The position numbers and the translations under genes are program-made. From the NCBI GenBank assembly GCA_043756405.1, contig JAYURC010000123.1:3836-67835 (forward strand): a DNA stretch of 64,000 nt, given 5' to 3'. Positions 49,335 through 64,000 of the stretch are shown here, piece by piece. The notes under the pieces are model-generated. The model saw only the letters and a program-made list of their open reading frames with translations, was not told the DNA's origin and made no database searches. The first letter of the stretch is position 1, and every line of letters begins with the position of its first letter. The stretch comes from Polaromonas sp. GTDB lineage: Bacteria; Pseudomonadota; Gammaproteobacteria; Burkholderiales; Burkholderiaceae_C.

Positions 49335-49354
49335 GAATTGACCTGAATGAATCT

Positions 49355-49396
49355 GAAGAAAGCAAAAACCACTCGCTGGCCACACAGGCCAGCGAG
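49355..49396 (-). terminator. Strong hairpin with T-rich tail between the His-rich gene and the TBDR gene
   Basis: CTCGCTGGCC (49372-49381) and GGCCAGCGAG (49387-49396) form a 10-bp perfect stem with a 5-nt loop. On the minus strand it is followed by TGGTTTTTGCTTTCTT. Confidence 0.5.
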
Positions 49397-49421
49397 CAAC
49401 AACAAAGAATGAAAGGGAGAT

Positions 49422-49853
49422 TCAGACGGTCAAAGGTGGGCCGCGCGCGTTAAACAGTGCTGCCCAACGGGCGAGTGCTTCGCCCTGAAAAATCGCCACG
49501 GTTGAAAGTGGCAGAACTACGGGCAATGTCGATAGCATCACCGCTACCAGCCCGCCATCATGGCTGGCCTGGTCATATAAACGGCAATCAGACAAGTCCT
49601 GGTGCGTTGAAAAAAGTAAAGCTAAAAAATGACGAGTTTCAGGCTCCTCGACTTCAGCATGGTCGTGACCATGACCATGACCATGACCATGATCATGATC
49701 ATGATCATGATCCTGCCGAGCATCCTGCGAATGCAGAGCCGAACCCGACGAGCCATGCGTGATGATATGAACCATACCCAGCGTTTGCGTCATCACCAGC
49801 ACAGCCGCCAGCAGCAAAGCGAGCAAGGTCGTGAGGCGAGGCAATACAAACAT
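49422..49853 (-). CDS. Membrane-anchored/secreted His-rich protein (DUF2946-like C-terminus)
   Basis: 143 aa with an N-terminal hydrophobic segment, a DHDHDHDHGHGHGHGHDH tract, and a C-terminal …ARGPP ending reminiscent of DUF2946 proteins found next to metal TBDRs. Confidence 0.6.
   Translation of the reverse strand: MFVLPRLTTLLALLLAAVLVMTQTLGMVHIITHGSSGSALHSQDARQDHDHDHDHGHGHGHGHDHAEVEEPETRHFLALLFSTHQDLSDCRLYDQASHDGGLVAVMLSTLPVVLPLSTVAIFQGEALARWAALFNARGPPLTV
49665..49712. repeat. Hexanucleotide tandem repeat inside the His-rich CDS
   Basis: GTGACC (ATGACC)x3 (ATGATC)x4, eight in-frame 6-bp units encoding (DH)4(GH)4DH on the minus strand. Confidence 0.9.
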
Positions 49854-49873
49854 GCGAAGCAGTCAGAAGATGT

Positions 49874-50407
49874 TTACTTGACGCTGGTAGCGTCCGTCAT
49901 GCGGTAGTACAAACCGTAAGAGTCATCATTCAGCACTGAAAACTTGCCCTCGACAACCACCGGCTCCATGCCGTATTTGACGGGGGTTTTGGTGCGCACC
50001 TCGACCATACTCTCAGGCCCGCCTGCGGTACAAAACGAGCAGGTCAGCGGCACAGACGACAGCAAAAAATGGCGCTGGCTGGTGCCAGGTTCGAGCGGCA
50101 TCATGAAGCCCTGAATGCGCTGGGTTTTCTGGTTCAGCGATGTCTGGCTGGTGCTGAAAACCGGCAAGATGCGATTTTTTTCTACCCTGGTTTTAACATC
50201 GGTCAACACAGACCACGGGATCACGTCATTGCGCGGCTGCAAGGGTGCAAACGGGCTGCCTGCACCGTGCGTGCCCGCACCGGTACCTGCGGCCAGCCCC
50301 GCCGGCGGCGCGCCCAGGGGCGACGACAAAACCTGAGCCGTTGCCGCACTGCCCAGGCAAAGCGCCAGGCCCGCTGCAGTAGCCCATGCTTTAAAACGAT
50401 GCTTCAT
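49874..50407 (-). CDS. DUF3299-like secreted protein
   Basis: 177 aa with a signal peptide, the motif GFMMPLE…HFLLSSVPLTCSFC, and a C-terminal …GLYYRMTDA. An AGGAG ribosome-binding site is present. Confidence 0.65.
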   Translation of the reverse strand: MKHRFKAWATAAGLALCLGSAATAQVLSSPLGAPPAGLAAGTGAGTHGAGSPFAPLQPRNDVIPWSVLTDVKTRVEKNRILPVFSTSQTSLNQKTQRIQGFMMPLEPGTSQRHFLLSSVPLTCSFCTAGGPESMVEVRTKTPVKYGMEPVVVEGKFSVLNDDSYGLYYRMTDATSVK

Positions 50408-50475
50408 TGGGTACTCCTGAAATCGAATGGTCTGCCAGATTTTGCGTCAGTTGTACAGTCAATGCGTTGAAAAAC

Positions 50476-50724
50476 TCAATGCACGTGCTTCATGCCGCAG
50501 TACTTGCCAACAGCCAGGCCTTTGCAGGCCGCTTGCAATTCTTTTTCACACATTTCCAGCTTTTTGCCTGACTCAAGGCATTTGGCAGCGCTTTCATGGG
50601 CGGCTGCCATGGCGCGGTGACGGGTGATGTCTTCTTTAAGCTCTTTGGCGGTGTGGGCTTGCGCAAACACGCTGCCACTGGCAACAAGAGCGAGCGCGGC
50701 AAGAATTGAGGTGTATTTTTTCAT
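50476..50724 (-). CDS. Small secreted helical Cys/His-containing protein (putative periplasmic metal-binding)
   Basis: 82 aa with a signal peptide (…SVFAQA), four Cys, and a His-containing C-terminus (CGMKHVH). An AAGGAA ribosome-binding site is present. I recognise no family. Confidence 0.55.
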   Translation of the reverse strand: MKKYTSILAALALVASGSVFAQAHTAKELKEDITRHRAMAAAHESAAKCLESGKKLEMCEKELQAACKGLAVGKYCGMKHVH

Positions 50725-50738
50725 GATGATTCCTTGAT

Positions 50739-51941
50739 TTAACGGGACTGGAGAAGTTCAAAAACACTGACACGGTAGGCCTCCCACGCGGGCAAAGCGC
50801 TGGCAACCAGCGCCACGCCCAAAGCCAGCACGGGGACGACCATCAGTTCAATCGGCCAGGCAAACGCGCCGATAAAAACAGATTTTTCAGCCTCTAGCGC
50901 CCAGGCAGCGGCGGCCAGCGCGCCCTGCCCCGCCAGCAAGCCTAAAGCACAGGCCAGCACGGCCAGCCACAGCGCTTCACACAGCAGCAGGCCAGCAATT
51001 TTGCGCGGTGGCGCACCCAGCATGCGCAGCAGGGCCAGGTCGGCACGGCGCTCCCGCACGGCGCTCCACAGGGCAATAAAAACGCTTAATCCGGCTGTAA
51101 GCAGCAACACGCCAGCCAGCGCCTTGAGCACATCTGTACCCACACCCATCATGCTGAGCAAACGGGTTATTTCAAGCGCAGGTGCGGCTGCCTGCATCTC
51201 GGTGGCGCTATTGACATAACGCGGAAAAGTAACCGCTGCCAGCGGCGACGTGTATTGAATCAACGCCAGCGTCAGCTCGCGTTCTTCTTCAAGAATTTTT
51301 TGATCCTCGGCGTCCAGTGCGGTGTCTGTTTCATGCACCTTCCAGACCGATTCAGTTGAGGTCAGAATCAGGCGGTCAAGAACTGATCCGCTGGCTGCCA
51401 GCACCCCTACCACCGTGTAGGGCGTTTGCGCATGGCTTTCGCCACCGCCGCCCAGCCCGTGACTGCCGGCAAAGGTGTCGCCTGCCTTGAGCCCGGTTTG
51501 CCGTGCCACCTGGCTGCCCACCACAGCTTGCATCGGTTGGGCCCAGAGCCCGCCGCTACCAAGCTGCGCGCCGTAGTGTTTGATGTAGTCAAGCGACGTA
51601 CCGACGATCCGGAAACCCCGAAAGCTGTCGCCCAGGCTGATGGGAATCACTTTGGCGACCTGCGGGTTTTTAGCCAGCTCTTTGACTGCCGCCAGGGGCA
51701 CATTGCCCGTGGGCGAGTCAATGTGAAACACGCCCGACAAAATCAGCTGCATCGGGCTGCCTTTGGCACCTACCACCACATCAATGCCTGCCAAGTCGCG
51801 CTCAAAGGCTTTGTTGAGCTGGTGACTGGCTAGCATCACCAGCGTGATGGCCGCCAGACCCAGCGTTAGCAACAGCAGGTTGAGGCCAGCAGCCAATGGC
51901 CGTGACCACAGGTAGCGCCATGAAAGCAGAATGGTTTTCAT
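50739..51941 (-). CDS. FtsX/MacB-type ABC transporter permease
   Basis: 400 aa with one N-terminal TM, a large periplasmic domain, and a C-terminal FtsX-like three-TM bundle. It has an ATGA overlap with the upstream ATPase gene. Confidence 0.85.
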   Translation of the reverse strand: MKTILLSWRYLWSRPLAAGLNLLLLTLGLAAITLVMLASHQLNKAFERDLAGIDVVVGAKGSPMQLILSGVFHIDSPTGNVPLAAVKELAKNPQVAKVIPISLGDSFRGFRIVGTSLDYIKHYGAQLGSGGLWAQPMQAVVGSQVARQTGLKAGDTFAGSHGLGGGGESHAQTPYTVVGVLAASGSVLDRLILTSTESVWKVHETDTALDAEDQKILEEERELTLALIQYTSPLAAVTFPRYVNSATEMQAAAPALEITRLLSMMGVGTDVLKALAGVLLLTAGLSVFIALWSAVRERRADLALLRMLGAPPRKIAGLLLCEALWLAVLACALGLLAGQGALAAAAWALEAEKSVFIGAFAWPIELMVVPVLALGVALVASALPAWEAYRVSVFELLQSR

Positions 51942-52654
51942 GCGTGCAAGCTGCCTGTCAAGTTGCTATTATTTTTATAGCTGTTTGCGCCCGTATTAAT
52001 TGGGCTACAGGCCAATTTGATACTGAAAAACGGCTTTGAAATGGCTTCAAACTGCTGTTTTACCCGCGAATCGTGGGTGGCGATTACCAGCGTGGCCTGC
52101 AAGCGCTGCGCGGTCTCGCTTAATAAACTTAAGGCCGCTTGGCAGGCAGCGCTGTCCAGGCTGGCGGTTGGCTCGTCGGCCAATACCACCTGGGGCTGCA
52201 GCAATACCGCACGCGCCAGCGCTACACGCTGCGCCTGCCCGCCCGACAGCTGCGCGGGTTTGCGGTTTGACAGTGCTTGCACACCCAGTGCGGCCAGCGC
52301 ATTGGCAATACGCTGGCTGTCAGTCTTTTGCCCAGCCGCCCATTGCGCCAGCTCCAGGTTGTCATGCACCGTTAACGCGGCGCTTAAATGCAGTTTTTGC
52401 GGCAAAAAGCCAATGGTCCGGGCGCGCCATGCATCGCCGTCAAGCTTGCTCAGTTGGCCCATCACTTGCCCCGCCACTGTCAGCTGCCCACTGCTGGCAG
52501 GCAGCAAACCGGCCGCCATGGCCAACCAGGTTGACTTGCCAGAGCCCGATGCGCCAGTCAGCAGCAACGTTGCACCCTGCGCCACACTGAAGTCAGCAAA
52601 CGCTAACTCCGGCCCATTCGCATAGCGGTAGGTGAGCTGGCGGCAACTGATCAA
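51938..52654 (-). CDS. ABC transporter ATP-binding protein (MacB/LolD-like)
   Basis: Walker A GASGSGKST, signature LSGGQAQRV, Walker B VLADEP. A probable TTG start at 52654 overlaps the zur stop (TTGA). The last ~20 codons run through repeat copy C. Confidence 0.85.
   Translation of the reverse strand: MISCRQLTYRYANGPELAFADFSVAQGATLLLTGASGSGKSTWLAMAAGLLPASSGQLTVAGQVMGQLSKLDGDAWRARTIGFLPQKLHLSAALTVHDNLELAQWAAGQKTDSQRIANALAALGVQALSNRKPAQLSGGQAQRVALARAVLLQPQVVLADEPTASLDSAACQAALSLLSETAQRLQATLVIATHDSRVKQQFEAISKPFFSIKLACSPINTGANSYKNNSNLTGSLHA
51963..52013. repeat. Dispersed ~50-bp repeat, copy C (inside CDS)
   Basis: TTGCTATTATTTTTATAGCTGTTTGCGCCCGTATTAATTGGGCTACAGGCC. By hand, 40 of 50 positions are identical to copy A. 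Confidence 0.7.
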
Positions 52655-53151
52655 ACCGGTGCCCCGGTTGCGCAGTCGGCGCACACACCGCGCACGGCAA
52701 AGTCCATGCTCATGCCCTGGTAGCCAAGTGCTTTGAGCGCTTCAAGCGCCGTTTGGGCGGCACGTTCGAGGTCATTTGCGTTGGCTTGCAGCGCACCCGA
52801 CAAAGGGCTGTCTTTGTGGCAGCTCTGGCATTCAAAGTGCGGAATGGCATGTATTTCAGCCGGCATGGCCTGGTAGCGGCGGGTGCGGCTGGCGTCTACC
52901 CGGCACAGCAACAGGCCAACTTGCGTCAAGCGGTCAATCAGGCGGTAAAGCGTCACGCGGTCAAGGTCGCCCGACTCAGCCTGCCTGTCGTCAGCTAGCG
53001 CCGCCTGCAACTGCGCATGGGTGTAGCTGGTGTCAGCGTGCGCCAGCAAAAAGCCCAGCACCAAGCGCGCGGCGCTGGTACGGCGAAGACCGTGGGCAGT
53101 AAGCAAGTCGTTGATGGGGTCAATCATTAAGGTGGTTGGCGAGGTCTGCAT
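52651..53151 (-). CDS. zur: Fur-family metalloregulator, probable Zur
   Basis: 166 aa with a winged-helix N-terminus (RRTSAARLVLGFLL…) and two CxxC pairs (FECQSC, GVCADC). The context is COG0523 genes plus metal transporters. Confidence 0.7.
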   Translation of the reverse strand: MQTSPTTLMIDPINDLLTAHGLRRTSAARLVLGFLLAHADTSYTHAQLQAALADDRQAESGDLDRVTLYRLIDRLTQVGLLLCRVDASRTRRYQAMPAEIHAIPHFECQSCHKDSPLSGALQANANDLERAAQTALEALKALGYQGMSMDFAVRGVCADCATGAPV

Positions 53152-53200
53152 GGTGAATATTTGTTGAAGCGGATCAGTCCTTTCCCGACCAGTCGACTAT

Positions 53201-53241
53201 TGCAATTCAGTTGCATTACAATTTAGTGCAATCAGGTTGCA
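53201..53241. promoter_or_regulatory. Three overlapping palindromes in the zur/COG0523 divergent region (candidate Zur operator)
   Basis: TGCAATTCAGTTGCA (53201-53215), TTGCATTACAATTTAGTGCAA (53211-53231) and TGCAATCAGGTTGCA (53227-53241). All are built from TGCAA/TTGCA arms. The site is centred between the two divergent start codons. Confidence 0.5.
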
Positions 53242-53286
53242 TTATCTCAGATCAGCAAAACAATCACCGATTATCTGGACTTCAAT

Positions 53287-54534
53287 ATGACAAAAAAAAA
53301 CACTCGCTTGCCTGTCACCGTCTTGTCCGGCTTTCTGGGCGCGGGTAAAACCACCTTGCTTAACCACATTTTGGCCAACCGTGAAGGCCTGCGCGTAGCG
53401 GTCATCGTGAACGATATGAGCGAGGTCAATATCGACGCGTCGCTGGTCGATAAAAACGCAACAAATGCGGGGGCTGCACTGTCGCGCACTGAAGAAAAAA
53501 TGGTCGAAATGAGCAATGGCTGCATTTGCTGCTCACTGCGCGAGGACTTGCTGCTGGAAGTGCGCAAGCTGGCAGCTGAAGGCCGGTTTGATTGCCTGCT
53601 GATTGAGTCAACCGGCATAGGTGAACCATTGCCCGTAGCAGCCACATTTGACTTCTGCGATGAAGAAGGCAACAGCCTGAATGATGTGGCCGCCATAGAC
53701 ACGATGGTGACGGTGGTCGATGCTTTCAATTTGCTTAATGACTACAGCAGCAAAGATTTGCTGGCGCACCGGGGGCAAGTAGCAGGCGACGAAGACAACC
53801 GCACACTTGCTGCGCTGCTCATGGAGCAGATTGAATTTGCCGACGTCATTGTGGTTAACAAAATTGACCGGGTCGACATAGCAAGGCGCAATGAAGTTAC
53901 GGGCGTTATCAAGGCATTGAACCCAACGGCTGAAATTGTGTACGCCGAGCACGGCCGCGTACCACTGGCCAAGGTGCTGGCCACTGGCAAATTTGACATG
54001 GAAAAAGCCGCTGCCATGCCTGGCTGGGCACGCGAACTTGAAGGCCATCACACCCCTGAAACCGAGGCTTACGGTATCAGCAGCTTTGTTCTGCGCAGCC
54101 ACGACCCACTGCACCCCAAGCGTTTTTCAGAATTTATGGAGCTGCCGCTGCCCGGCCTGCTGCGTGCCAAAGGGTACGTGTGGCTGGCCAGCAAGCCTGA
54201 GTGGGTAGTGTCGTACTCGCGTGCCGGCAACACCGCCACGCACGAACCCGTGGGCCGCTGGTGGGCACACCAGAGCGACAAAAGCCGCTGGCCACCCAAG
54301 GGCGACCCGCAGCGTGATGCGATTGATGCGCGGTGGAAAGAACCATACGGCGACCGTTTGAATGAAGTCGTTTTTATTGGCCAGAACATGGACCGAGCCT
54401 TAATTGAAGCCGCATGGAAAGCCACCCACCTGACATATACCGAAACCCGGAAGGGTATGAAAGGTTGGCGGGATTTAGCCGACCCGTTTCCAAATTGGGC
54501 CGCAACGCCTGTGCTGGAAGCTGAGCCTGCCTGA
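53287..54534 (+). CDS. COG0523 GTPase metallochaperone (ZigA-like long form)
   Basis: 415 aa with P-loop GFLGAGKTT, metal motif [10 protein letters not shown], and a CobW C-terminal domain. Confidence 0.85.
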
Positions 54535-54570
54535 TTGCCATTGATTGCTAACTTAACCACGGGAAATCAG

Positions 54571-54948
54571 ATGAAAGTTGCTTACGTCTTTGCCACCAGT
54601 ATGGCTTCAACCTTTAAATTGGCGACCATGATCCTGCCGCAGCTTGAACGTGGAAATCACGGCGCAGGTGTGGCGGGCATGATGTTTTTCGATGACAACA
54701 TTTTCTGCCTTCGGCAAGGCGATCCCGTCGGTGAACGGCTGGCTAAAGTTGCCGAAGACCAGGGTATCTTGCTGATGGTGTGCGACCAGTGTGCTGTGAG
54801 GCGAAATCTGGCAGACGGCACGTACGAGCAGTGCGGCACCGGACAGGTCGTGGCACGGGGCCTGGTTAAAGGCGTCGTGGCAGGCTGCTTTCCGCAGCTG
54901 TACGGCGCACTGGCAGCCAGCCCGCCCAACTATGTCATCAGCTTGTAG
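54571..54948 (+). CDS. DsrE/DsrF-like family protein
   Basis: 125 aa starting MKVAYVFATS…, with an alpha/beta DsrE-like pattern and a CDQC motif. The ATG at 54571 is preferred. Confidence 0.6.
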   Translation: MKVAYVFATSMASTFKLATMILPQLERGNHGAGVAGMMFFDDNIFCLRQGDPVGERLAKVAEDQGILLMVCDQCAVRRNLADGTYEQCGTGQVVARGLVKGVVAGCFPQLYGALAASPPNYVISL

Positions 54949-55172
54949 ATCGCACCCTTCCAGACGGGTGCTTGATCAAACCGCTTTGCATGGTCACCGA
55001 AATTCTGGTTTGTGTACGTTGTCGCTCGCCCGGCGCATCGGCAGATCATCCAGGAGAAGGTCAGGCGCGAATGGAATCATGTCATGCGAATCGCGGCCCG
55101 CGTGTCTGCGGGCTGACACTTTGGCGCGAAACCCTGTGTTGAATCAACAGCAACTGTGAACAGGAACTACCT

Positions 55173-56162
55173 ATGAGCCTCATCCCCGTCACCATCCTTA
55201 CTGGCTTTCTAGGCAGCGGTAAGACCACGCTGCTCAACCGCATTTTGAAAGCTGATCACGGCTACAAAATTGCGGTCATTGAAAACGAATTTGGCGAAGC
55301 TGGTATCGATAACGAACTGCTGGTGCAAGACCGTGATGAACAAATCATCGAAATGAACAACGGCTGCATTTGTTGCACAGTGCGCGGCGATCTGGTGCGC
55401 ATTTTGTCTGAGCTGGCGTTAAAAAGAAAATTAGGCGTACTTAGCTTTGATCATGTGGTGATTGAAACCACAGGTCTTGCAGACCCGGCACCTGTGGCGC
55501 AAACATTTTTTGTGGACGAAGCTGTTCAGATGAACTACCTGCTGGACGCCATCGTTACGCTGGTGGATGCCGTACACGCACCGCAGCAACTCGACGCGCA
55601 TCATGAAGCACAGGAGCAAGTCGGTTTTGCGGATCGTATCCTGATCAGCAAGACTGACCTGGTTGATACACCCACGCTGGCTGCCTTGCGCCAACGCCTG
55701 GGCCGCATCAACCCGCGCGCAAAAATCGGCGTCGCCCATCACGGCGTTGCAGCGAAAGACGATCTTATGGACGTTCGCGGCTTTAACCTAAGCGCCATTC
55801 TGGACATTGAACCCGAATTTTTAACAGATGTTGACCATGAGCACGATGACGATGTGACTTCGTTTGTGTTTCGTGAAGACCGCGCACTTGATCTGGAGCG
55901 CGTCGAAGACTTTCTGGGCGGGATGATTCAGGTCTACGGCCCGCAAATGATGCGCTACAAGGGCGTGCTCAACATCAAAGGCGAAACCCAGCGGGTGGTA
56001 TTTCAGGGCGTACACATGCTGATGGGCGCTGAGCGTGCAGGCCAATGGCAGGCCGGAGAAAAACGGTCTTCAAAGATGGTATTTATTGGGCGTGATTTGC
56101 CCAAAAAGTTGTTACTGGATGGTCTGGCTGGCTGTGCAGTAGCAGCCAAATCCGCCAACTAG
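55173..56162 (+). CDS. COG0523 GTPase metallochaperone (CobW/YjiA-like short form)
   Basis: 329 aa with P-loop GFLGSGKTT, GCICCTVRGD, and an acidic/His linker DVDHEHDDDV. Confidence 0.85.
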   Translation: MSLIPVTILTGFLGSGKTTLLNRILKADHGYKIAVIENEFGEAGIDNELLVQDRDEQIIEMNNGCICCTVRGDLVRILSELALKRKLGVLSFDHVVIETTGLADPAPVAQTFFVDEAVQMNYLLDAIVTLVDAVHAPQQLDAHHEAQEQVGFADRILISKTDLVDTPTLAALRQRLGRINPRAKIGVAHHGVAAKDDLMDVRGFNLSAILDIEPEFLTDVDHEHDDDVTSFVFREDRALDLERVEDFLGGMIQVYGPQMMRYKGVLNIKGETQRVVFQGVHMLMGAERAGQWQAGEKRSSKMVFIGRDLPKKLLLDGLAGCAVAAKSAN

Positions 56163-56186: not shown

Positions 56187-56891
56187 ATGTTGCAAGCAAG
56201 TCATTTAAGCAAAAACTTTGGCGACGTACGCGCACTCGACGCAGTCAGCCTGTCAGTCGCACCAGGGGACATTTATTGTCTGCTGGGTGCCAACGGCGCG
56301 GGCAAAACCACGCTCATCAATGTGTTTCTCAACTTTTTGCAGCCCACATCGGGCATAGCAGCTGTCAATGGCTGCGACGTTACTACCGATCCGCTTCAAA
56401 CCAAACGCGACATTGCCTACATCCCTGAACAGGTCATGCTGTACGGCGTATTGTCGGGTCTGGAGAACCTGGACTACTTTGCCACGCTTGCAACAGGTAC
56501 GAAGCAAAACAAACAACAGCTGCTCAAGTTACTTACAAATGTAGGACTGGACGAATTGGCTACCGCACGACGGGTTGCCACTTATTCCAAAGGCATGCGA
56601 CAAAAAGTAGGGATCGCCATCGCCATGGCTAAAAATGCCAAAGCGTTATTACTTGACGAGCCAACATCCGGCCTGGACCCATCCGCCGCCAACGAGTTTT
56701 CGCATTTGCTGAAGAAAGCCAGCCAACGAGGGGTTGCCGTTCTCACCACGACCCATGACCTGTTTCATGCCAAGCAAACAGCGAGTCGTATCGGCATCAT
56801 GAAGCGCGGCCAGATGGTGGCAGAGCTCAGCAGCGCAGACATCACGCACACCGACCTTGAAGCGCTGTACCTGCAGCACATGAGGTCGTGA
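56187..56891 (+). CDS. ABC-2-type exporter ATP-binding protein
   Basis: Walker A GANGAGKTT, signature YSKGMRQKV, Walker B LLLDEPTSGLD. Confidence 0.85.
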   Translation: MLQASHLSKNFGDVRALDAVSLSVAPGDIYCLLGANGAGKTTLINVFLNFLQPTSGIAAVNGCDVTTDPLQTKRDIAYIPEQVMLYGVLSGLENLDYFATLATGTKQNKQQLLKLLTNVGLDELATARRVATYSKGMRQKVGIAIAMAKNAKALLLDEPTSGLDPSAANEFSHLLKKASQRGVAVLTTTHDLFHAKQTASRIGIMKRGQMVAELSSADITHTDLEALYLQHMRS

Positions 56892-58312
56892 CCATGAATC
56901 AACTTAGCCGATTTGCCACGCTGCTGTGGATCGCACGCAAAGACTTTAAAGAATACCTGCGCGATGGCCGCCTGCATTGGGCGGGGGGCATGGTACTGGT
57001 TTTGATGTTGACGGCGCTGGCTGTGGGCTGGCAAAACCAGCGCGCCATCAGCGGTGAACGAACCGTTGCACAAAAGCTTGATTACAAAGATTGGGTGAGC
57101 CAAAACACGCGCCACCCGCATGACGCAGCGCACCAGGGCATGCATGTCTTCAAGCCTGAACCGCCGCTGTCGGTGATCGACCCAGGCATCACGCCGTATG
57201 TTGGATCAACCTTGTGGTTGCAGGCGCACCGACAAAGCGAAGTTAAATTTCGCCCGGCACAAGATGCCACCGGCTTACAGCGGCTGGGGCAACTCAGCGC
57301 TGCGTGGGTGCTGCAGGTACTAGGGCCGCTGCTGATTGTGGTGCTGGGATTTAATTCGTTTGCGGGTGAGCGTGAGAGCGGCACACTTCGGCAAACCTTG
57401 AGTTTGGGCATCACGCCACGTCAGCTGCTGTGGGGCAAGGCGCTTGGCCTGGGCGCTTGCCTGGCAGTGCTGCTGATACCTGCCGGATTGGCCACACTGG
57501 TTGCCAGCTTATGGGGACTAGAGCCGTCACTACAGGCTGACGCCGCCTGGCGGTTGTTGGGCTTGAGCTTGGGATACGCCGTGTATTTGCTGATTGCAGT
57601 GTTTGTGGTGCTGGCCGTATCAGGCTGGGCACGCAACGCACGCATTTCACTTGTTGTGTTGCTAGGACTCTGGATTGTCGGCACGCTGATGGTGCCGCGC
57701 GCCGCTTCAGACCTAGCGCGTACGCTCAACCCCAGCCCCACACGACTGGCATTCAGCCAAAAAATGAATGCTGACCTAGGAGCAAGTTACCAGCAGGCGT
57801 GGAAGGAGAAGTTGGGCTCTGACAAGCGCTGGGGTGCCGATGTTCCGCTGAACAAATGGGGCATTGCCTTGCAGATAGACGACCAGGCAGGTTATGGTGT
57901 GACTGACAAGCATTTTGGCCGCCTGTGGGACGCTTTTGAAGAGCAGCAGCGCAGCCAGGTTTGGGCCGGTCTGGTTGTGCCCTTGCTCGCGCTGCGGTCC
58001 TACTCAATGGGCATGGCGAGTACCGACTTTGCCAATCACCGGGATTTTTCGGTCGCAGCAGAGCAGCACCGCCGTTTAATGCAAGACCTGATGAGCGCCG
58101 ACTTGGTCAAACACGCAGACAAATTGCACAACCAGCACTTTGCTTACCAGGCCGATGCAAAACTGTGGGCTACCGTGCCGCGCTTCAGTTATCAGTTACC
58201 TAGCGCTGGCGTGTCGTTTCAAAACAATCTTGCAAGCCTTCTGGTTCTGCTAGCCGTGTTGGCAGCAAGCATTCAGGTAGCGCGTGTGGCTTGTACGCGC
58301 CCTTTGCAGTAA
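56888..58312 (+). CDS. ABC-2 permease, DUF3526-like
   Basis: 474 aa. It overlaps the ATPase stop. It has an N-terminal TM, a large extracytoplasmic segment, an ABC-2 TM bundle (…FAGERESGTLRQTL…), and a C-terminal extra domain plus TM. Confidence 0.7.
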   Translation: MTMNQLSRFATLLWIARKDFKEYLRDGRLHWAGGMVLVLMLTALAVGWQNQRAISGERTVAQKLDYKDWVSQNTRHPHDAAHQGMHVFKPEPPLSVIDPGITPYVGSTLWLQAHRQSEVKFRPAQDATGLQRLGQLSAAWVLQVLGPLLIVVLGFNSFAGERESGTLRQTLSLGITPRQLLWGKALGLGACLAVLLIPAGLATLVASLWGLEPSLQADAAWRLLGLSLGYAVYLLIAVFVVLAVSGWARNARISLVVLLGLWIVGTLMVPRAASDLARTLNPSPTRLAFSQKMNADLGASYQQAWKEKLGSDKRWGADVPLNKWGIALQIDDQAGYGVTDKHFGRLWDAFEEQQRSQVWAGLVVPLLALRSYSMGMASTDFANHRDFSVAAEQHRRLMQDLMSADLVKHADKLHNQHFAYQADAKLWATVPRFSYQLPSAGVSFQNNLASLLVLLAVLAASIQVARVACTRPLQ

Positions 58313-58319
58313 AGGTTTT

Positions 58320-59792
58320 ATGCGCACATTTCTAACCTCATGGCAGCTTTTTTGTACGGTATTCAAGCACGAAGGCAAGGTACTTTTTGCAGACCGAACG
58401 CTGTGGCTGGTGGGCGGCTTGCTTTCAGCACTGTTGGCATACGCGCTTGTAAATGGCATGCAACATACGCAGGCACGCACAGACGCTGCGTCGGTAGTGT
58501 TAAAGCGCCAGGCTGATCAACAGGTCAGCAATCTTGACCTGCTCAACCGCATGATGGCTGGCAAGGCCACACCTGAGCCGTTTGCCAACCCGGCTGACCC
58601 GGCGTCGGTGGGCAGCGGTATGGGCGGGCGCTACGCCGTGTTGCCGACGACGGTGTTGGCTCCCGTAGCTGTTGGTCAGTCAGACATGTTCAGCCACTAC
58701 TACCAGGTGACTTACCGCAGCAAGCTCAATTTCATGTACGACAGTGAAATTGAAAACCCCTGGAACCTGCTGTCGGGGCATTTCGACTTGGCCTTTGTCG
58801 TGGTTTACCTGTTGCCTCTGCTGATTTTTGCATTGAGCTACAACCTGCTGTCTGCCGAGCGTGAACAAGGCACGCTGCGCATGCTGTTGTCGCAACCGCT
58901 GGGCTTGCCCGTTTTGGTTACAGCCAAGCTGGCTGTGCGCGCTACGGCTGTAATTGGTATCGCTGTTATGTTGCCACTGCTGATATTGACTCTGCACCGG
59001 CCAGAAGTCCGGCAAATGGCAGCACTGCCCTTGCTCTTGACCTGGTCAAGCCTGGTGGCCAGCTATGCGCTGTTCTGGTTTGTTCTTTGCGCAGCTGTCA
59101 ACGCCATCGGACGGTCATCGGCAGCCAACGCACTGATGCTGATTGGTGGCTGGGTCGTGTTGGTGTTGGTGGTACCCGTGCTGCTTAATCTGGTGGTGGG
59201 GCTGGTCAGCCCCGCTCCATCGCGTACAGAGCTAGCCACAAGTACACGGCTGATCACGATTGAAGGCCTGAACCGCTATAACAAACTGCTCAGCACCGAC
59301 TATCGTTACATCGACAAACCAGAAGTACTGATACCCAAAAACGGCAAGATCGAAGTCCCTCCGCGCAGGCAGGGCGCGTACATGTTGCAACGCGACGTAG
59401 ACAAGGCGATACAGCCAGTGCTGGACCAGTTTGATGCCCAACTCGCGGAGCAACAGGCGCTGGTCGAGCGTTTCGGCTTTCTGTCACCAGCCATCGTGGC
59501 GCATGAAGGCATGGCCGCGCTGGCGGGCAATGGGTCACGCCGCTACCTGGAGTTTCAAAGCCAGGTCAGTAATTTTCATGCGTTATGGAAGCAGTTTTTT
59601 GAACCTCGCATGTTGACGGGTACAGCGATTGTTGAAGCTGACTTTGAACGCATGCCCCGCTTTGAATGGCAAGAAGCACCTGCCAGTGACCTGCGTGCTG
59701 ACAGTTTGCTGCGACTGGTACAGCTGCTAGCCTTGACATTGTTGCTGGCCGGATCTACCGCCTGGCGCCTACGCCGCTACCCGGTTGTTTAA
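58320..59792 (+). CDS. ABC-2 permease, DUF3526-like (paralogue)
   Basis: ~490 aa with the same architecture (…LSAEREQGTLRMLL…). The start was chosen at MRTFLTS. Confidence 0.7.
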   Translation: MRTFLTSWQLFCTVFKHEGKVLFADRTLWLVGGLLSALLAYALVNGMQHTQARTDAASVVLKRQADQQVSNLDLLNRMMAGKATPEPFANPADPASVGSGMGGRYAVLPTTVLAPVAVGQSDMFSHYYQVTYRSKLNFMYDSEIENPWNLLSGHFDLAFVVVYLLPLLIFALSYNLLSAEREQGTLRMLLSQPLGLPVLVTAKLAVRATAVIGIAVMLPLLILTLHRPEVRQMAALPLLLTWSSLVASYALFWFVLCAAVNAIGRSSAANALMLIGGWVVLVLVVPVLLNLVVGLVSPAPSRTELATSTRLITIEGLNRYNKLLSTDYRYIDKPEVLIPKNGKIEVPPRRQGAYMLQRDVDKAIQPVLDQFDAQLAEQQALVERFGFLSPAIVAHEGMAALAGNGSRRYLEFQSQVSNFHALWKQFFEPRMLTGTAIVEADFERMPRFEWQEAPASDLRADSLLRLVQLLALTLLLAGSTAWRLRRYPVV

Positions 59793-59835
59793 ATTTTTTC
59801 TGTTTTCTTTTTTTACTCATACCTAAAAATTACCT

Positions 59836-62028
59836 ATGAAACTTCAAAAACTATCGCTCGTCATGGTGGGTGTACAAGCCCTTCTGCTGGCCACGGCTGT
59901 GCAGTCACAAACCACGTTGAAACAAGTCGATGTGCGCGAAAGCCAGCAAGACCTGTCGCCCAACCTGACTGAAAAAACCGGGGCTGCTTCGCGACTGGGT
60001 TTGAGCATCAAAGACACGCCTGCATCGGTGGATGTCATCACGCAGGAGCAAATGGAGCAGCGCGGTGCGCGTACCTTTGAAGAAGCGCTGCGCGGTGGCG
60101 TTGGCATGTCTGCAGGCGGCAACCCGGGTTCGCCATCGATTGGGTCAACACGCGGTTTTACCGGCGGTTTTATTTCGTACCTGTATGACGGCAGCCGTAT
60201 CTCCAGCGCAGGCATGGCCAGCCGCCCGCAAGATACTTTTAACTACGAGCGCATTGCGATACTGAAAGGACCAGCTTCGGTGCTGTACGGCGAGGGCGCC
60301 ATTGGCGGTGTGGTCAATTTTGTGACCAAACGGCCTGACCGCAACAACCCGTCAAAAGAAGCGATGATTTCTTATGGCAGTTTCAACACCCTGCGCGCAG
60401 GTGCTGGTCTCGGCGTGAACATCGGTCAGGACAGCGCCCTGCGGGTTGACTTTAGCCACATGCAAACTGATGGCCACATTGAGCGCAACAAACAGCGATT
60501 GAACAACCTGACGCTAGGCTTTGCAACCAGGCTGGCGCGTGATGTGAAGCTTGATTTGTCGGTGGACTACCTGAGCGACAGCGCATCGTCGTACTGGGGC
60601 AGCGTGCTGGTGCCCGCCACCTTTGCACTTCAGCCAACGAGTGCAGTCACAGACTCTGCAGGCCGCGTCATTGACCGCCGCCTTGCCTTTAAAAACTACA
60701 ACGTTGACGATGGCATCATGCGCAACGACAGTCTGTGGACACGCGCCAAGCTGCAATGGGACATAAACCCCGACTGGACATTGCGCAACGAACTGTCGTA
60801 CTACACCGCAGACAGGCTGTGGCGCAATTCTGAAACCTACAGCTTTGCTGCGCCTAATCTGCTGAACCGCAGCCTGACTAGCATTAGCCATGACCACCAG
60901 GTGCTCAGTAACCGGCTGGACTTGACCAACACCAGCAGCATTGGCGGCATAAAAAACAAGTTTGTTGCCGGTCTGGAATACACCAGCACCACCTTTAGCA
61001 GCGAGCGGCGCTTTTCAAATGGCTCAGCCGCCACCAATGCAGCGTTAAGGGTAGATATTTTGAATCCGGTTTACGGCAATTACAGCGAAAACCCCGCGTT
61101 TTTTACTGGCGCTGGTAACCGGACCAATTTCGCCACCGAAATTCCGGTGTTGTCGCTGTTTGCTGAAGATGCGTTATCTGTCACTGACAAGTTGACCTTG
61201 GTGGCAGGCATACGCATCGACTCAGGCGAAATTGAACGCAAAAATTTTGACCTGAATACCAACGCTACAACAGCGTTTAGCCAAAGCTACAACGCCACAT
61301 CAACACGCCTGGGTGCTGTTTATGCATTTGACAAAGACAGTTCTGTGTATGCCCAGTACACCGACGCTGTTGCCCCGGTTGGCGGCAGCAATTTGCTATT
61401 GCTGTCAGCAATCAATTCTGCCTTCAAGTTATCCAAGGGCGTACAGACTGAAATTGGCTTCAAGCAATCGGCACTCGGTGGCCAGCTTGATTACACGGTA
61501 TCGGTTTACAGCATCAAGCTGTCCAACATTTTGTCGCGCGACACGACCTTGCCTGCCTTGGTGGTCAATACCGGTTCGCAGTCCTCTAACGGTGTTGAGC
61601 TGGCTGCGGCCTGGCGCGCCACCAGACAGTTGAGCGTGAGCGGCAACTACGCACGTGTTAACGCAAAGTTTGACAGTCTGCTGGAGGCGGGCGGCGTGTC
61701 CCGCGCGGGCAACAAGCCTCCCAACGTGCCCAACGTGGTGGCCAACCTGTGGGTGGACTACAAACTCAGCAATTCACCCCTCAAGGTTGGCATGGGTCTG
61801 AACCGCACTGGCGAAGCCTTCACGGGTAACGACAACCGGGTCAAGCTCAATGCCCGCACCACGGCAGATGCCTACGCCAACTGGGACTTCAAACCAGGTG
61901 TCGTCAGCGTTCGGGTGCGCAACCTGACTAACAAACTGTATGCAACATGGGGTGGCTCAAGTGCTGCCAATCAGGTAATGGTTGCCGCACCGCGCAGTGT
62001 GGATGTCAGTTACCGGGTTGCTTTTTAA
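59836..62028 (+). CDS. TonB-dependent siderophore-type receptor
   Basis: 730 aa with a signal peptide, a plug (DTPASVDVITQEQMEQRG…ILKGPASVLYGEGAIGGVVNFVTKRP), and a barrel ending in YRVAF. Confidence 0.85.
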   Translation: MKLQKLSLVMVGVQALLLATAVQSQTTLKQVDVRESQQDLSPNLTEKTGAASRLGLSIKDTPASVDVITQEQMEQRGARTFEEALRGGVGMSAGGNPGSPSIGSTRGFTGGFISYLYDGSRISSAGMASRPQDTFNYERIAILKGPASVLYGEGAIGGVVNFVTKRPDRNNPSKEAMISYGSFNTLRAGAGLGVNIGQDSALRVDFSHMQTDGHIERNKQRLNNLTLGFATRLARDVKLDLSVDYLSDSASSYWGSVLVPATFALQPTSAVTDSAGRVIDRRLAFKNYNVDDGIMRNDSLWTRAKLQWDINPDWTLRNELSYYTADRLWRNSETYSFAAPNLLNRSLTSISHDHQVLSNRLDLTNTSSIGGIKNKFVAGLEYTSTTFSSERRFSNGSAATNAALRVDILNPVYGNYSENPAFFTGAGNRTNFATEIPVLSLFAEDALSVTDKLTLVAGIRIDSGEIERKNFDLNTNATTAFSQSYNATSTRLGAVYAFDKDSSVYAQYTDAVAPVGGSNLLLLSAINSAFKLSKGVQTEIGFKQSALGGQLDYTVSVYSIKLSNILSRDTTLPALVVNTGSQSSNGVELAAAWRATRQLSVSGNYARVNAKFDSLLEAGGVSRAGNKPPNVPNVVANLWVDYKLSNSPLKVGMGLNRTGEAFTGNDNRVKLNARTTADAYANWDFKPGVVSVRVRNLTNKLYATWGGSSAANQVMVAAPRSVDVSYRVAF

Positions 62029-62047
62029 GAACGGTTAGTCGCGCCCC

Positions 62048-63595
62048 ATGAGCACCAGCGCGAGCACTCCCATAAAAAAGCTGACACACAAAACTCTGGT
62101 CTTTCTTCACAAGTGGCTGGGTGTTGTTCTTGCGCTGTTGTTCCTGTTCTGGTTTGTCAGCGGTGTGGTGTTGTACTTTGTACCGTTTCCGGGTTTAACT
62201 CAGACCGAGCGGCTGGCTGGACTTACAACGCTAACCTTGCCCACAGGCTGCTGCCTGACAGCCGACCAAGCCGCCACTAGCGCAGGTTTAAAAGTCAATG
62301 ATGCACGACTTGGCATGCACGATCGCAAACCTGTTTGGCGACTGCTGGGCAAGCCAGTTGGTGACGCGCAAGCTACCCCACAATGGCGGGCAGTTGATGC
62401 GCAGAATGGGCAAATCCTGCCGACCTTGTCTGCAGGCGATGCCCACCAGGTAGCCGAAGCTTTCAGCGGCAAGAAAGCCCTTGCGTCCGAGCTGCTGGAG
62501 CGAGACCAGTGGACAGTTCCACAGGGCCTGAACCCTTACCGTCCCCTGCAGCGCATCGAAATAGGTGGGCCTGACGGGCTGGAGTTGTATGTGTCAGCCA
62601 ACTCCGCCGAGGTGGTACGCGACACCCGGCGCGCCGAGCGTTTCTGGAACTGGCTGGGCGCAGTACCTCACTGGATTTACTTCACCGAACTGCGCCGCTA
62701 CCCGGACGCCTGGCACAACGTAGTCGTGTGGCTGTAAATACCTGGCGTGATTTTGGCCGTTACCGGCATCGTGCTGGGTACTTGGCATTTGTTTATCAAT
62801 CGCATGCGCTGGATTCCCTACCGCCAATGGTGGATGCGCTGGCATCACATCATGGGTTTGACTGCAGCTATCGTGACGCTGACCTGGATATTTTCTGGTC
62901 TGCTTTCGATGAACCCGTTCAAGGTATTTTCGCCACGCTCGGCGCTGCACAGCGAGCATCTGCAGTGGCAGGGACCCAAAGCGGCTGTGATGCTTACACC
63001 AGCGCAGGCACTGATGTTATCGGACGCAACAGACATCAAGGAAATGGATGTCGTTCAGGTGGCTGGGCAAAGCTGGTATCGGCTTTGGGGTGTTAACGGG
63101 CAAACTTTGGTACGTGCCGACAGGCCGATTTCGAATGTTGCGTCACAAGTCCTAAACGCCCTGCCAGATGAAACCATACAAGTCGGCCTGCTGGGTTTGC
63201 GGCCAGGCGCAGGGACTTCGGGCTCTGTGGCTTTAACAAAATTGTCAGCCTATGACAACCAATACTATGCCCGCGAAGTGACTGAAAACACCCGTTACAC
63301 CAGGCCGCTGCCGGTGTGGCGTGCGCAGTGGCCCGATGGTGTGGCCATGTATGCCGACCCGACATCTGGCAAGCTGCTTTTGCGCGCTGATGAGTCCAAC
63401 CGCTGGCAGCGCGTGCTGTACAACGGACTGCACAGCTTTGATTTTGCACCGCTGCTAAGTCGTCCTTGGTTGAGAGACGCGTTGATTCTGATTTTTTCAA
63501 TGCTTGGCACGGCGCTGTGCGTCACGTCTTGCGTCATTGCATGGCGGGTGTTGGTGCCGCGCAAACGCAGGTCTGCCGAGGTGAAGCCGCATTAA
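62048..63595 (+). pseudogene. PepSY-associated TM (PiuB-like) protein interrupted by an in-frame TAA
   Basis: The ORFs 62048-62737 and 62747-63595 are in the same frame, separated only by TAA at 62735-62737 (…WHNVVVWL*IPGVILAVTGIV…). Read together they give a typical ~515-aa PepSY-TM protein. Confidence 0.6.
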
Positions 63596-63634: not shown

Positions 63635-64000
63635 ATGACTGAAAAGCAAAGCATCCCTACCCACCTGCGTACCCACACCTTTCACGGCCTGGCCCCCGGC
63701 CCGGCGCTGCTGGTACTCGGCGCGGTGCACGGCAACGAGATATGCGGCACGCGCGCCATCATGCAGCTGCTGCAAGACGTTGACGCTGGCTCGCTGGCAA
63801 TTGAGCGCGGCTCGGTGACGTTTGTGCCCATCACCAACCCGCTGGCGCATCAGCTCAAACGGCGCGTTGGCGACCGCAATTTAAACCGCAACATGGCGCC
63901 CAGCGCTATACCGCAAGACTTTGAAGACCGCATTGCCAACGTGCTGTGCCCACTGCTGGACGCGCATGACGTGCTGCTGGATTTGCATTCGTTTCACACA
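63635..64000 (+). CDS. Succinylglutamate desuccinylase/aspartoacylase (AstE/AspA, M14-like) family protein, 3'-truncated
   Basis: My own translation from ATG 63635 gives MTEKQSIPTHLRTHTFHGLAPGPALLVLGAVHGNEICG…DRNLNRN…LLDLHSFH. It contains the HGNE zinc-ligand motif and runs off the window end. Confidence 0.7.
   Translation, partial: MTEKQSIPTHLRTHTFHGLAPGPALLVLGAVHGNEICGTRAIMQLLQDVDAGSLAIERGSVTFVPITNPLAHQLKRRVGDRNLNRNMAPSAIPQDFEDRIANVLCPLLDAHDVLLDLHSFHT

What the first reader, a model, noticed from the sequence alone, without database searches (positions are those of the whole stretch)
56187..63595. ABC-2 exporter with two DUF3526-like permeases linked to a TonB-dependent receptor and a PepSY protein, downstream of the Zur-controlled COG0523 genes
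Five genes follow the second COG0523 gene with gaps of 24, -4, 7, 43 and 19 bp and no visible terminator or promoter. The string may therefore be co-transcribed from the Zur-box region. An ABC-2-type ATPase with two large paralogous permeases carrying extra extracytoplasmic domains looks like an exporter. It is paired with a siderophore-type outer-membrane importer and a PiuB-like PepSY protein. No metallophore biosynthesis genes are present. As far as I know, the function of such DUF3526 ABC systems next to TBDRs has not been established. Possibilities include recycling or export of a metallophore, or removal of a co-imported metal or ligand.
Basis: partly seen in the sequence, partly recalled or inferred. 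Interest (0 to 1): 0.65.

Follow-up and report, generated by a model that had tools for sequence, protein, structure and literature searches.

The report
Zinc-regulated ABC-2 and TonB receptor module
This is a widespread but biochemically uncharacterised zinc-starvation gene set: an outer-membrane receptor for chelated metal is paired with an unusual ATP-driven inner-membrane machine carrying three invariant periplasmic histidines, and a system with the same layout was named ZnuGHI/ZnuK in Caulobacter.

Summary
The gene string is real. It comprises an ATPase, two paralogous ABC-2/DUF3526 permeases, a TonB-dependent receptor and a PepSY_TM gene, with the stated gaps.

Across 80 genomes the ATPase-P1-P2 trio sits next to a TonB receptor in 74. 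The module usually lies behind a Zur-type operator, or behind zur plus rpmJ2. PepSY_TM and COG0523 are each nearby in only 15 loci.

Both permeases are predicted with high confidence and resemble only NosY, the membrane part of the copper-handling NosDFY machine. P1 has an invariant periplasmic motif (PHxAAHxG…H…D…R). P1 has no conserved metal-binding residue inside the membrane.

The receptor is closest to CrtA, a copper-chelate importer, and keeps CrtA's essential histidine.

The closest published system is Caulobacter ZnuGHI/ZnuK, which is Zur-repressed and whose transport was never tested. I could not confirm sequence homology to it.

My best reading is a zinc-acquisition module that acts in the uptake direction. 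Export or recycling of a ligand remains possible. I rate it a new member of a named but mechanistically unknown kind, with moderately high interest.

The parts
53193..53245 (+). Promoter-like site (TCGACT-18-TACAAT) overlapped by two palindromes, TGCAATTCAGTTGCA (53201-53215) and TGCAATCAGGTTGCA (53227-53241). These are the putative Zur operators for the divergent operons.
   Evidence: They are the only two exact matches in the 64-kb window. The same motif lies 76-142 bp upstream of the ATPase gene in L010, L024 and L058.
52651..53151 (-). Divergent Fur-family regulator, the putative Zur. It has CxxC...CxxC motifs.
   Evidence: Pfam FUR is only 16.8 bits, below the cutoff. The best PDB hits are Fur-family regulators at E about 0.005. 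It is 81% identical to the gene at the same position in L001 and 36-46% identical to parts of the Fur-family genes near the module in Variovorax L011 and L021; L007's upstream gene matches Pfam FUR at 63.7 bits.
53287..54534 (+). COG0523 GTPase, ZigA-like.
   Evidence: NF038288 at 569.6 bits (cutoff 600), plus cobW and CobW_C.
54568..54948 (+). SaoD/DsrE-family protein.
   Evidence: NF040913 at 194.7 bits, above the cutoff of 152.
55173..56162 (+). Second COG0523 GTPase. Its best NCBIfam match is the PRK11537 GTPase model.
   Evidence: NF008578 at 315 bits, below the cutoff of 361, plus cobW and CobW_C.
56187..56891 (+). ABC-2-type ATPase (ZnuG-like). By eye it has Walker A GANGAGKT, signature YSKGMRQ, Walker B LLLDE and an H-loop.
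   Evidence: ABC_tran at 102 bits; the best NCBIfam match is DrrA, TIGR01188. The motifs were read from the translation. It is 62-85% identical across nearly all of the 80 loci.
56888..58312 (+). Permease P1: an ABC2_membrane_2 core of six TM helices, a periplasmic loop 1 (residues ~65-135) and a helical DUF3526 insert (~281-447) between TM5 and TM6.
   Evidence: Pfam. AF2 model with pLDDT 90 and pTM 0.89. Foldseek best hit is NosY 7o0y_D, TM 0.72 normalised to the target.
57101..57283 (+). The part of P1 that encodes the invariant periplasmic motif: Q72, P77, H78, A80, A81, H82, G84, H114, D126, R132. The Zur-linked subgroup also has H76, D79 and H86.
   Evidence: H78 is kept in 134 of 135, H82 in 134 of 135 and H114 in 133 of 135 diverse representatives.
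58320..59792 (+). Permease P2, a paralogue of P1 with the same architecture. It lacks the His motif.
   Evidence: Pfam. 28% identity to P1. AF2 model with pLDDT 88.4; best Foldseek hits are NosY chains. Conservation.
59836..62028 (+). TonB-dependent receptor, CrtA-like. It keeps E333, H352 and R391, the counterparts of CrtA E337, H358 and R395.
   Evidence: phmmer against 9rvq_A gives E = 7.5e-84. H352 is the only H/C/M/W residue conserved at 90% or more among 64 module-adjacent receptors.
62048..63595 (+). PepSY_TM inner-membrane protein gene, disrupted by a TAA at 62735-62737.

Best explanation
This is a zinc-starvation (Zur-controlled) metal-acquisition module with the layout of the system named ZnuGHI/ZnuK in Caulobacter.

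Proposed sequence of events:
1. The CrtA-like TonB-dependent receptor brings zinc into the periplasm as a complex with a small chelator.
2. The ATPase-P1-P2 complex is a heterodimeric, NosY-like ABC-2 machine in the inner membrane.
3. It takes the metal at the invariant three-histidine site in P1's periplasmic loop.
4. It uses ATP to move the metal inward. It either carries the metal across the membrane itself, or strips it from the chelator and hands it to another importer.
5. The two COG0523 GTPases then allocate zinc inside the cell.
6. PepSY_TM is an optional accessory, and it is inactivated in this genome.

Shown here: the gene content, the conserved pairing with a TonB receptor, Zur-type operators in relatives, the predicted fold, and the invariant residues.

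Inferred: the metal is zinc, the histidine site binds it, the direction is inward, and the window's nine genes form one transcript.
For: **Conserved unit.** In 80 genome loci the ATPase-P1-P2 trio is always together where the contig extends far enough. A TonB receptor is adjacent in 74: 54 downstream, 8 upstream, 11 divergent.

**Zinc regulation in relatives.**
- Classic Zur boxes lie upstream in Achromobacter, Bordetella, Bradyrhizobium and Limnobacter.
- The window's palindrome type lies 76-142 bp upstream of the ATPase in L010, L024 and L058. That accounts for 3 of only 5 such sites in 1.52 Mb.
- In Variovorax the module follows zur, a long palindrome and rpmJ2.

**No alternative importer.** No periplasmic-binding-protein importer and no biosynthesis gene recurs at these loci. 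In most of them the ABC-2 is the only inner-membrane transporter beside the receptor.

**Permease P1.**
- The most conserved part of P1 is periplasmic loop 1.
- H78, H82 and H114 are kept in 133-134 of 135 representatives that are 32-56% identical to it.
- P1/P2 asymmetry and natural P1-P2 fusions indicate a heterodimer.

**Fold.** The best matches for both permeases are NosY chains of NosDFY, NosDFYL and NosDFY-NosZ complexes.

**Receptor.** It is closest to CrtA (E = 7.5e-84) and keeps CrtA's essential His. CrtA imports chelated metal (PMC12914433).

**Published precedent.** In Caulobacter, znuGHI and znuK are derepressed 12- to 41-fold in a zur mutant. Zur binds their shared promoter region, and a znuK mutant fails to grow under EDTA (PMC4176598).

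**Distant relatives.** They sit beside other metal-uptake genes:
- CobN, ExbB and a TonB receptor.
- FecIR, a TonB receptor, PepSY_TM and DUF4198.
- RcnB.

Against: - All characterised bacterial ABC-2 (type V) systems are exporters or non-transporting machines, as far as I know. No metal importer with this fold is known.
- P1 has no conserved His, Cys, Asp, Glu or Met inside its membrane helices. A zinc path through the membrane is therefore not visible.
- In the window the Zur-type palindromes lie about 3 kb upstream of the ATPase gene. A 224-bp gap at 54949-55172 could hold an unseen promoter.
- No expression data exist for this organism.
- Some relatives carry Fur-like palindromes instead of Zur boxes (Acidovorax, Janthinobacterium). 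The family therefore may not be zinc-specific.
- Caulobacter Tn-seq at 300 uM EDTA showed no notable defect for single Zur-regulon genes other than zrpW (PMC12004947).
- Homology of Caulobacter ZnuH and ZnuI to P1 and P2 was not verified by sequence.
Confidence: 0.5

Rival explanations
1. One reading: an exporter or recycler. The ABC-2 pump expels a zinc-binding small molecule or the emptied chelator from the cell or the periplasm, and the TonB receptor re-imports the loaded form.
For: The ABC-2 fold is typical of exporters. After NosY, the next structural matches are ABCG-type exporters such as ABCG25. The best NCBIfam match of the ATPase is DrrA, the ATPase of the daunorubicin-resistance ABC transporter. 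CrtA-type receptors are thought to use simple carboxylate chelators that need no dedicated biosynthesis genes (PMC12914433).
Against: No biosynthesis, membrane-fusion or outer-membrane channel gene recurs with the module. An exporter of an organic ligand would not obviously need three invariant periplasmic histidines on one subunit. The module is also found with receptors of two different subfamilies.
Confidence: 0.2
2. A pure periplasmic machine like NosFY. Nothing crosses the membrane through it. ATP hydrolysis drives movements of the DUF3526 and loop-1 domains, which strip zinc from the imported chelate and pass it to a separate importer or to periplasmic proteins. This overlaps with the second branch of the best explanation.
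For: Only NosY matches the fold. The PDB entries show NosFY working with periplasmic NosD, NosL and NosZ. P1 has no conserved intramembrane metal ligand. Zinc cannot be released by reduction, so another energy source would be needed (inference).
Against: No conserved periplasmic acceptor or second importer is encoded with the module. By my recollection Caulobacter has no ZnuABC; the 2014 paper lists ZnuGHI as its only Zur-repressed ABC system. No hand-off partner is evident there.
Confidence: 0.2
3. It is an iron or copper system that merely lies next to the Zur genes, and is driven by its own Fur- or copper-responsive promoter.
For: The receptor passes the siderophore-receptor model TIGR01783, and its closest solved relative imports copper. 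PepSY_TM proteins include the ferric-siderophore reductase FoxB (cited in PMC12914433). Fur-like palindromes occur in a few relatives.
Against: There is no room for a promoter in the 24-bp gap before the ATPase gene, and no Fur box in the window region. Most relatives have Zur boxes, or zur with rpmJ2, directly upstream. CrtA loci carry DUF2946/CruR and no ABC-2. Two of CrtA's six site residues differ.
Confidence: 0.08

Closest known systems
Caulobacter crescentus ZnuGHI (CC1518-1520) with the TonB receptor ZnuK (CC1517); Mazzon et al. 2014, PMC4176598
   Same: An 'ABC-2 type' ATPase plus two ABC-2 permeases next to a TonB receptor. There is a Zur box in the shared promoter region (ATTGTTATGATATAACATC), almost the same as the Achromobacter box found here. 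No binding-protein gene was reported among its Zur-repressed genes. It is proposed to act in zinc uptake.
   Different: Sequence homology to P1 and P2 was not verified here. The Caulobacter unit has the receptor divergent and no PepSY_TM or COG0523 in the operon. ZnuGHI itself was never mutated or assayed, so it supplies a name and a regulation pattern, not a mechanism.
NosFY of the NosDFY(L) copper-delivery machine (PDB 7o0y, 7znq, 7qba)
   Same: It is the best and only significant structural match for both permeases. It has the same Pfam family (ABC2_membrane_2) and a small ABC-2 ATPase partner. It handles metal in the periplasm.
   Different: NosY is a homodimer of about 270 aa without DUF3526 and without the His loop. 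Its periplasmic work is done by the separate proteins NosD and NosL. It serves N2O reductase assembly and copper, not zinc uptake. Sequence identity is only 13-20%.
CrtA (BfrG) TonB-dependent copper-chelate transporter of Bordetella pertussis and its PepSY_TM partner BP2921 (PMC12914433; PDB 9rvq)
   Same: It is the closest solved receptor (E = 7.5e-84). The essential His358, Glu337, Arg395 and Trp265 are conserved in the window's receptor. A PepSY_TM gene follows the receptor gene. No metallophore biosynthesis genes are present.
   Different: CrtA loci carry DUF2946/CruR and respond to copper, and they have no ABC-2 genes. Two of the six site residues differ here (Y130 becomes S, Q356 becomes I). 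The context here is Zur and COG0523.
ZnuABC and ZnuD zinc uptake
   Same: Zur control and a role in zinc starvation. A ZnuD-like receptor lies in the neighbouring minus-strand operon.
   Different: There is no ZnuA binding protein and no ABC-3 permease. The fold is a different ABC class. This receptor is not ZnuD-like (30.9 bits against the ZnuD model).

Membership tests
ABC-2 (type V) transporters, ABC2_membrane_2 / NosY-like | Pfam PF12679 match above the gathering score in the permeases | tested here: met
   P1 scores 90.8 bits and P2 61.7 bits; the cutoff is 27.2.
ABC-2 (type V) transporters, ABC2_membrane_2 / NosY-like | Six-helix membrane core with an N-terminal amphipathic helix, structurally similar to a solved member | tested here: met
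   The AF2 models have pLDDT 90 and 88. The best Foldseek hits are NosY chains, with probability 1.00 and a best target-normalised TM-score of 0.72 for P1 and 0.54 for P2.
ABC-2 (type V) transporters, ABC2_membrane_2 / NosY-like | Cognate soluble ATPase with Walker A, signature and Walker B motifs | tested here: met
   ABC_tran at 102 bits; the motifs were read from the translation.
DUF3526 (PF12040) | Match above the gathering score, placed between TM5 and TM6 | tested here: met
   67.2 and 89.2 bits against a cutoff of 25. The position follows from the secondary structure of the models.
ZnuGHI/ZnuK (Caulobacter) | One ATPase plus two ABC-2 permeases adjacent to a TonB receptor | tested here: met
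   compared with PMC4176598.
ZnuGHI/ZnuK (Caulobacter) | Zur operator controlling the unit | tested here: inconclusive
   In the window the palindromes lie about 3 kb upstream, at the head of the putative operon. In relatives, Zur-type boxes lie directly upstream of the ATPase gene. No binding or expression data exist.
ZnuGHI/ZnuK (Caulobacter) | Sequence homology to CC1518, CC1519 and CC1520 | not tested
   No Caulobacter protein appeared in the top-120 lists or among the named cluster members. A metagenome scan with the published Zur box recovered no such locus.
[quoted passage not shown] | Six conserved ligand-site residues (Y130, W265, E337, Q356, H358, R395) | tested here: not met
   Four of six are kept (W254, E333, H352, R391). 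Y130 becomes S124 and Q356 becomes I350.
[quoted passage not shown] | Locus type DUF2946/CruR - receptor - PepSY_TM, with copper regulation | tested here: not met
   PepSY_TM follows the receptor, but no DUF2946 or CruR was found among the genes scanned at this locus. ABC-2 genes are absent from CrtA loci.
PepSY_TM (PF03929; FoxB / BP2921-like) | Full-length match and an intact reading frame | tested here: not met
   The match is 40.5 bits only after the stop is read through. The TAA at 62735-62737 breaks the frame.
ZnuABC-type importers | ZnuA binding protein and ABC-3 permease | tested here: not met
   No ZnuA or ABC-3 match among the proteins scanned between 36435 and 64000.
Siderophore export or recycling pumps (such as MacB-type PvdRT-OpmQ) | Membrane-fusion and outer-membrane partners, or linked biosynthesis genes | tested here: not met
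   None recurs in the 80 loci.

The most novel reading that the evidence does not exclude
DUF3526 ABC-2 heterodimers may be a new class of receptor-coupled metal-handling ABC machine that needs no binding protein. They would be relatives of NosFY that carry their own periplasmic three-histidine site. They would use ATP either to import zinc (and, in other lineages, other metals) through an exporter-type fold, or to strip the redox-inert metal from chelates delivered by CrtA-like TonB receptors.
Probability: 0.3. Interest if true: 0.8.

Novelty: new member of a known kind. Interest (0 to 1): 0.58.

Why it matters
**The open question.** How zinc that enters through TonB-dependent receptors reaches the cytoplasm is unresolved. 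This is especially so in bacteria without ZnuABC.

**Scale.** This module is widespread. It forms 687 clusters at 50% identity with E of 1e-30 or better. It occurs in Proteobacteria, Acidobacteria, Verrucomicrobia, Planctomycetes and other phyla. It is usually placed under Zur, yet it has no described mechanism and its defining domain is still a DUF.

**If it imports zinc,** it would be the first metal importer with a type V (exporter-like) ABC fold.

**If it is a NosFY-like relay,** it would show how a redox-inert metal is released from chelators.

**What makes this testable.** The invariant His motif, the natural P1-P2 fusions and cultivable hosts (Variovorax, Achromobacter, Bradyrhizobium, Caulobacter) give direct experimental handles.

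Tried and rejected
**Literature.** A search for 'DUF3526' gave no paper. Combinations of ABC-2, zinc, Zur and TonB gave only the Caulobacter paper.

**Attempts to verify Caulobacter ZnuH/ZnuI homology.**
- A second homologue search seeded with a Sphingomonas orthologue.
- Names of 30 cluster representatives.
- The supplement of the 2014 paper.
- A metagenome scan with the published 19-bp Zur box.

None recovered a Caulobacter sequence. One box hit turned out to be an ordinary znuA/zur-znuCB locus.

**Expression.** Only two DNA runs from a sediment metagenome hold the sequence, so operon mapping was impossible.

**Structure searches.**
- PepSY_TM has no detectable sequence relative in the PDB.
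- The DUF3526 insert found no structural match beyond the NosY core.

**Readings rejected.**
- A zincin protease reading of H-D-A-A-H. Position 79 is Ser, Ala or Gly in most family members.
- Membership of the CrtA family proper. Two site residues and the locus type fail.
- A ZnuABC-like importer. There is no binding protein and no ABC-3 permease.

**Unhelpful alignment.** Aligning the gap at 54949-55172 with the Polaromonas relative was uninformative.


Full report
**1. The observation**

The + strand carries, after the COG0523 gene at 55173-56162, five ORFs at 56187-56891, 56888-58312, 58320-59792, 59836-62028 and 62048-63595. The gaps are 24, -4, 7, 43 and 19 bp.

The domain assignments are as follows:
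- The first ORF is an ABC ATPase (ABC_tran, 102 bits).
- The next two are permeases, each with ABC2_membrane_2 and DUF3526 above the Pfam thresholds.
- The fourth is a TonB-dependent receptor that passes TIGR01783.
- The fifth is a PepSY_TM protein.

The two permeases are paralogues, with 28% identity and E = 2e-9. The consensus scan finds one promoter-like site, at 53193-53222, and no convincing terminator on the + strand down to 63595.

One point was missed. The PepSY_TM gene carries an in-frame TAA at 62735-62737.
- The 92%-identical Polaromonas locus L001 has TCA at that codon.
- Two sediment-metagenome runs reproduce the window sequence exactly.
- Read through, the product matches PepSY_TM end to end.

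The gene is therefore a recent pseudogene, or at best split in two.

**2. Surroundings**

The divergent intergenic region at 53152-53286 holds two exact TGCAA-N5-TTGCA palindromes that overlap the promoter-like site. They are the only exact copies in the window.

On the minus strand lies a second operon:
- a divergent Fur-family regulator, the putative Zur, which scores below the Pfam threshold;
- a LolD/MacB-type ATPase;
- an FtsX/MacB_PCD permease;
- a DUF3299 protein;
- a ZnuD-like TonB receptor.

On the plus strand, the ABC-2 genes are preceded by a ZigA-like COG0523 gene, a SaoD/DsrE-family gene and a second COG0523 gene. The region is a zinc-starvation island.

**3. Comparative evidence**

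I retrieved 80 genome loci that encode P1 relatives of 52-92% identity. They come from Comamonadaceae, Achromobacter and Bordetella, Bradyrhizobium, sphingomonads, Methylobacillus, Acidobacteria, Thermodesulfobacteriota and Prosthecochloris.

ATPase, P1 and P2 are together wherever the contig extends far enough. A TonB receptor is adjacent in 74 of the 80 loci: 54 downstream, 8 upstream, 11 divergent. PepSY_TM is nearby in 15 loci and COG0523 in 15. Clustering all neighbouring ORFs revealed no other universal partner. There was no binding protein and no biosynthesis gene.

The upstream regions are informative:
- Achromobacter, Bordetella, Bradyrhizobium and Limnobacter have classic Zur boxes.
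- Rhodoferax, Methylobacillus and a Burkholderiales MAG have the window's palindrome type 76-142 bp before the ATPase gene. These are 3 of only 5 such sites in 1.52 Mb.
- In Variovorax the module follows zur, a long palindrome and rpmJ2, a hallmark of Zur regulons.
- A few lineages carry Fur-like palindromes instead.

In Polaromonas L001, folE and a homocysteine methyltransferase separate the COG0523 gene from the ATPase gene, and the ATPase gene has its own palindrome. The window's tight fusion to the COG0523 genes is therefore a local rearrangement. It is consistent with the ABC-2 unit itself being the regulated entity.

**4. The permeases**

AlphaFold2 models are confident: P1 has pLDDT 90 and pTM 0.89, and P2 has pLDDT 88.4 and pTM 0.85. 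The only significant PDB matches for either are NosY chains of the NosDFY, NosDFYL and NosDFY-NosZ complexes. ABCG-type exporters follow far behind. The helical DUF3526 insert between TM5 and TM6 has no match.

From the helix order and the positive-inside rule, both loop 1 (about 70 aa) and DUF3526 (about 165 aa) face the periplasm. This topology is inferred.

An exhaustive search finds 3009 clusters at 50% identity, 687 of them with E of 1e-30 or better. It also finds natural P1-P2 fusions of 966 aa.

Across 135 representatives that are 32-56% identical to P1, the most conserved feature is in loop 1:
- H78 is kept in 134 of 135.
- H82 is kept in 134 of 135.
- H114 is kept in 133 of 135.
- Q72, P77, G84, D126 and R132 are also conserved.

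The Zur-linked subgroup adds H76, D79 and H86. P2 lacks the motif. No His, Cys, Asp, Glu or Met is conserved inside P1's membrane helices.

**5. The receptor and PepSY_TM**

The closest solved structure is CrtA (BfrG) of Bordetella pertussis, with E = 7.5e-84. According to PMC12914433:
- CrtA imports chelated copper.
- CrtA needs His358.
- In more than 75% of loci the crtA gene is followed by a PepSY_TM gene.
- Those loci have no ABC-2 genes.

The window's receptor keeps four of CrtA's six site residues, including the essential histidine. That histidine (H352) is the only His, Cys, Met or Trp conserved at 90% or more among 64 module-adjacent receptors. I read it as a sister of CrtA that takes a metal-chelate complex, not a member of the CrtA family proper.

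**6. What is known**

The one published system with this layout is Caulobacter ZnuGHI/ZnuK. It has an 'ABC-2 type' ATPase and two permeases, divergent from a TonB receptor. The findings in PMC4176598 are:
- The genes are derepressed 12- to 41-fold in a zur mutant.
- Zur binds the shared promoter region.
- A znuK mutant fails to grow under EDTA.

ZnuGHI itself was neither mutated nor assayed. A later Tn-seq study at 300 uM EDTA saw no notable single-gene defect in the Zur regulon other than zrpW (PMC12004947). I could not obtain the Caulobacter sequences, so homology is likely but unverified.

**7. Distant members**

More distant relatives of P1 sit beside other metal-uptake genes:
- CobN, ExbB and a TonB receptor.
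- FecIR, a TonB receptor, PepSY_TM and DUF4198.
- TonB receptors in Acidobacteria-like contigs.
- DUF4198 in a planctomycete.
- RcnB.

The family as a whole therefore belongs to metal traffic at the envelope.

**8. Interpretation**

The best-supported reading is a Zur-controlled zinc-acquisition module. The CrtA-like receptor delivers chelated zinc. The NosY-like heterodimer captures the metal at P1's histidine site and uses ATP to move it inward.

Whether the metal crosses the membrane through this complex or is handed to another importer cannot be decided from sequence. Two points favour a relay: the absence of conserved intramembrane ligands in P1, and the NosFY precedent. Two points favour import: the lack of any partner gene at these loci, and the ABC-2 being the only inner-membrane transporter in most of them.

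**9. Verdict**

The zinc link is supported by comparative evidence. The 'exporter' label is not established.

The system is a new member of a kind that has a name (pending the homology check) but no mechanism. The family-level features found here make it a good target for experiment. These are the invariant His motif, the NosY-like fold, the pairing with CrtA-like receptors and the natural fusions.

Noticed in passing
window 62735-62737: An in-frame TAA lies inside the PepSY_TM gene. The closest relative has TCA (Ser). The stop is reproduced in contigs from two metagenome runs.
   Followed up: yes
window 47235-53151 (minus strand): A second putative Zur operon: a divergent Fur-family regulator, a LolD/MacB-type ATPase, an FtsX/MacB_PCD permease, an 81-aa ORF, a DUF3299 protein and a ZnuD-like TonB receptor (290 bits against the ZnuD model, below its cutoff). 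From memory it resembles the Pseudomonas aeruginosa PA4063-4066 cluster.
   Followed up: partly
window 54568-54948: A SaoD/DsrE-family gene (NF040913, 194.7 bits) sits between the two COG0523 GTPase genes. Its role in a zinc-starvation operon is unexplained.
   Followed up: no
window 54949-55172: A 224-bp gap inside the putative operon holds a 42-codon Cys-rich ORF at 54991-55119 (MVTEILVCVRCRS...). It has no Pfam match. An internal promoter here cannot be excluded.
   Followed up: partly
L001 7035-9300: In the 92%-identical Polaromonas locus, folE (GTP cyclohydrolase I) and a homocysteine S-methyltransferase lie between the second COG0523 gene and the ATPase gene. The ATPase gene has its own palindrome, TAACGCAACTAAATTGCGTTA. 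The window's layout therefore looks like a deletion or fusion variant.
   Followed up: partly
proteins P0172 and P0173: These are natural single-chain fusions of a P1-like and a P2-like permease (966-967 aa). They support a P1-P2 heterodimer.
   Followed up: no
L007 8457-9285: In Variovorax the order is zur, then the palindrome GTTATTGAGAATGAATTCTCAATAAC, then rpmJ2 (a paralogue of ribosomal protein L36), then the ATPase gene.
   Followed up: partly
L065, L068, L070, L036, L075 (about 100-170 bp upstream of the ATPase gene): Acidovorax, Janthinobacterium and an Oxalobacteraceae MAG carry GATAATGCATTATC-type palindromes, which look Fur-like, instead of Zur boxes. The family may serve iron in some lineages.
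   Followed up: no
L020 and L048 (the same Bradyrhizobium chromosome): There are two copies of the whole locus in one genome. In L020, P2 is split into four tblastn pieces, which suggests decay. L048 also carries a partial third ATPase-P1 copy on the opposite strand.
   Followed up: no
window 63635-64000: The next gene, cut by the window end, is aspartoacylase / succinylglutamate desuccinylase-like. It starts 40 bp after the PepSY_TM stop, with no terminator-like site between.
   Followed up: no
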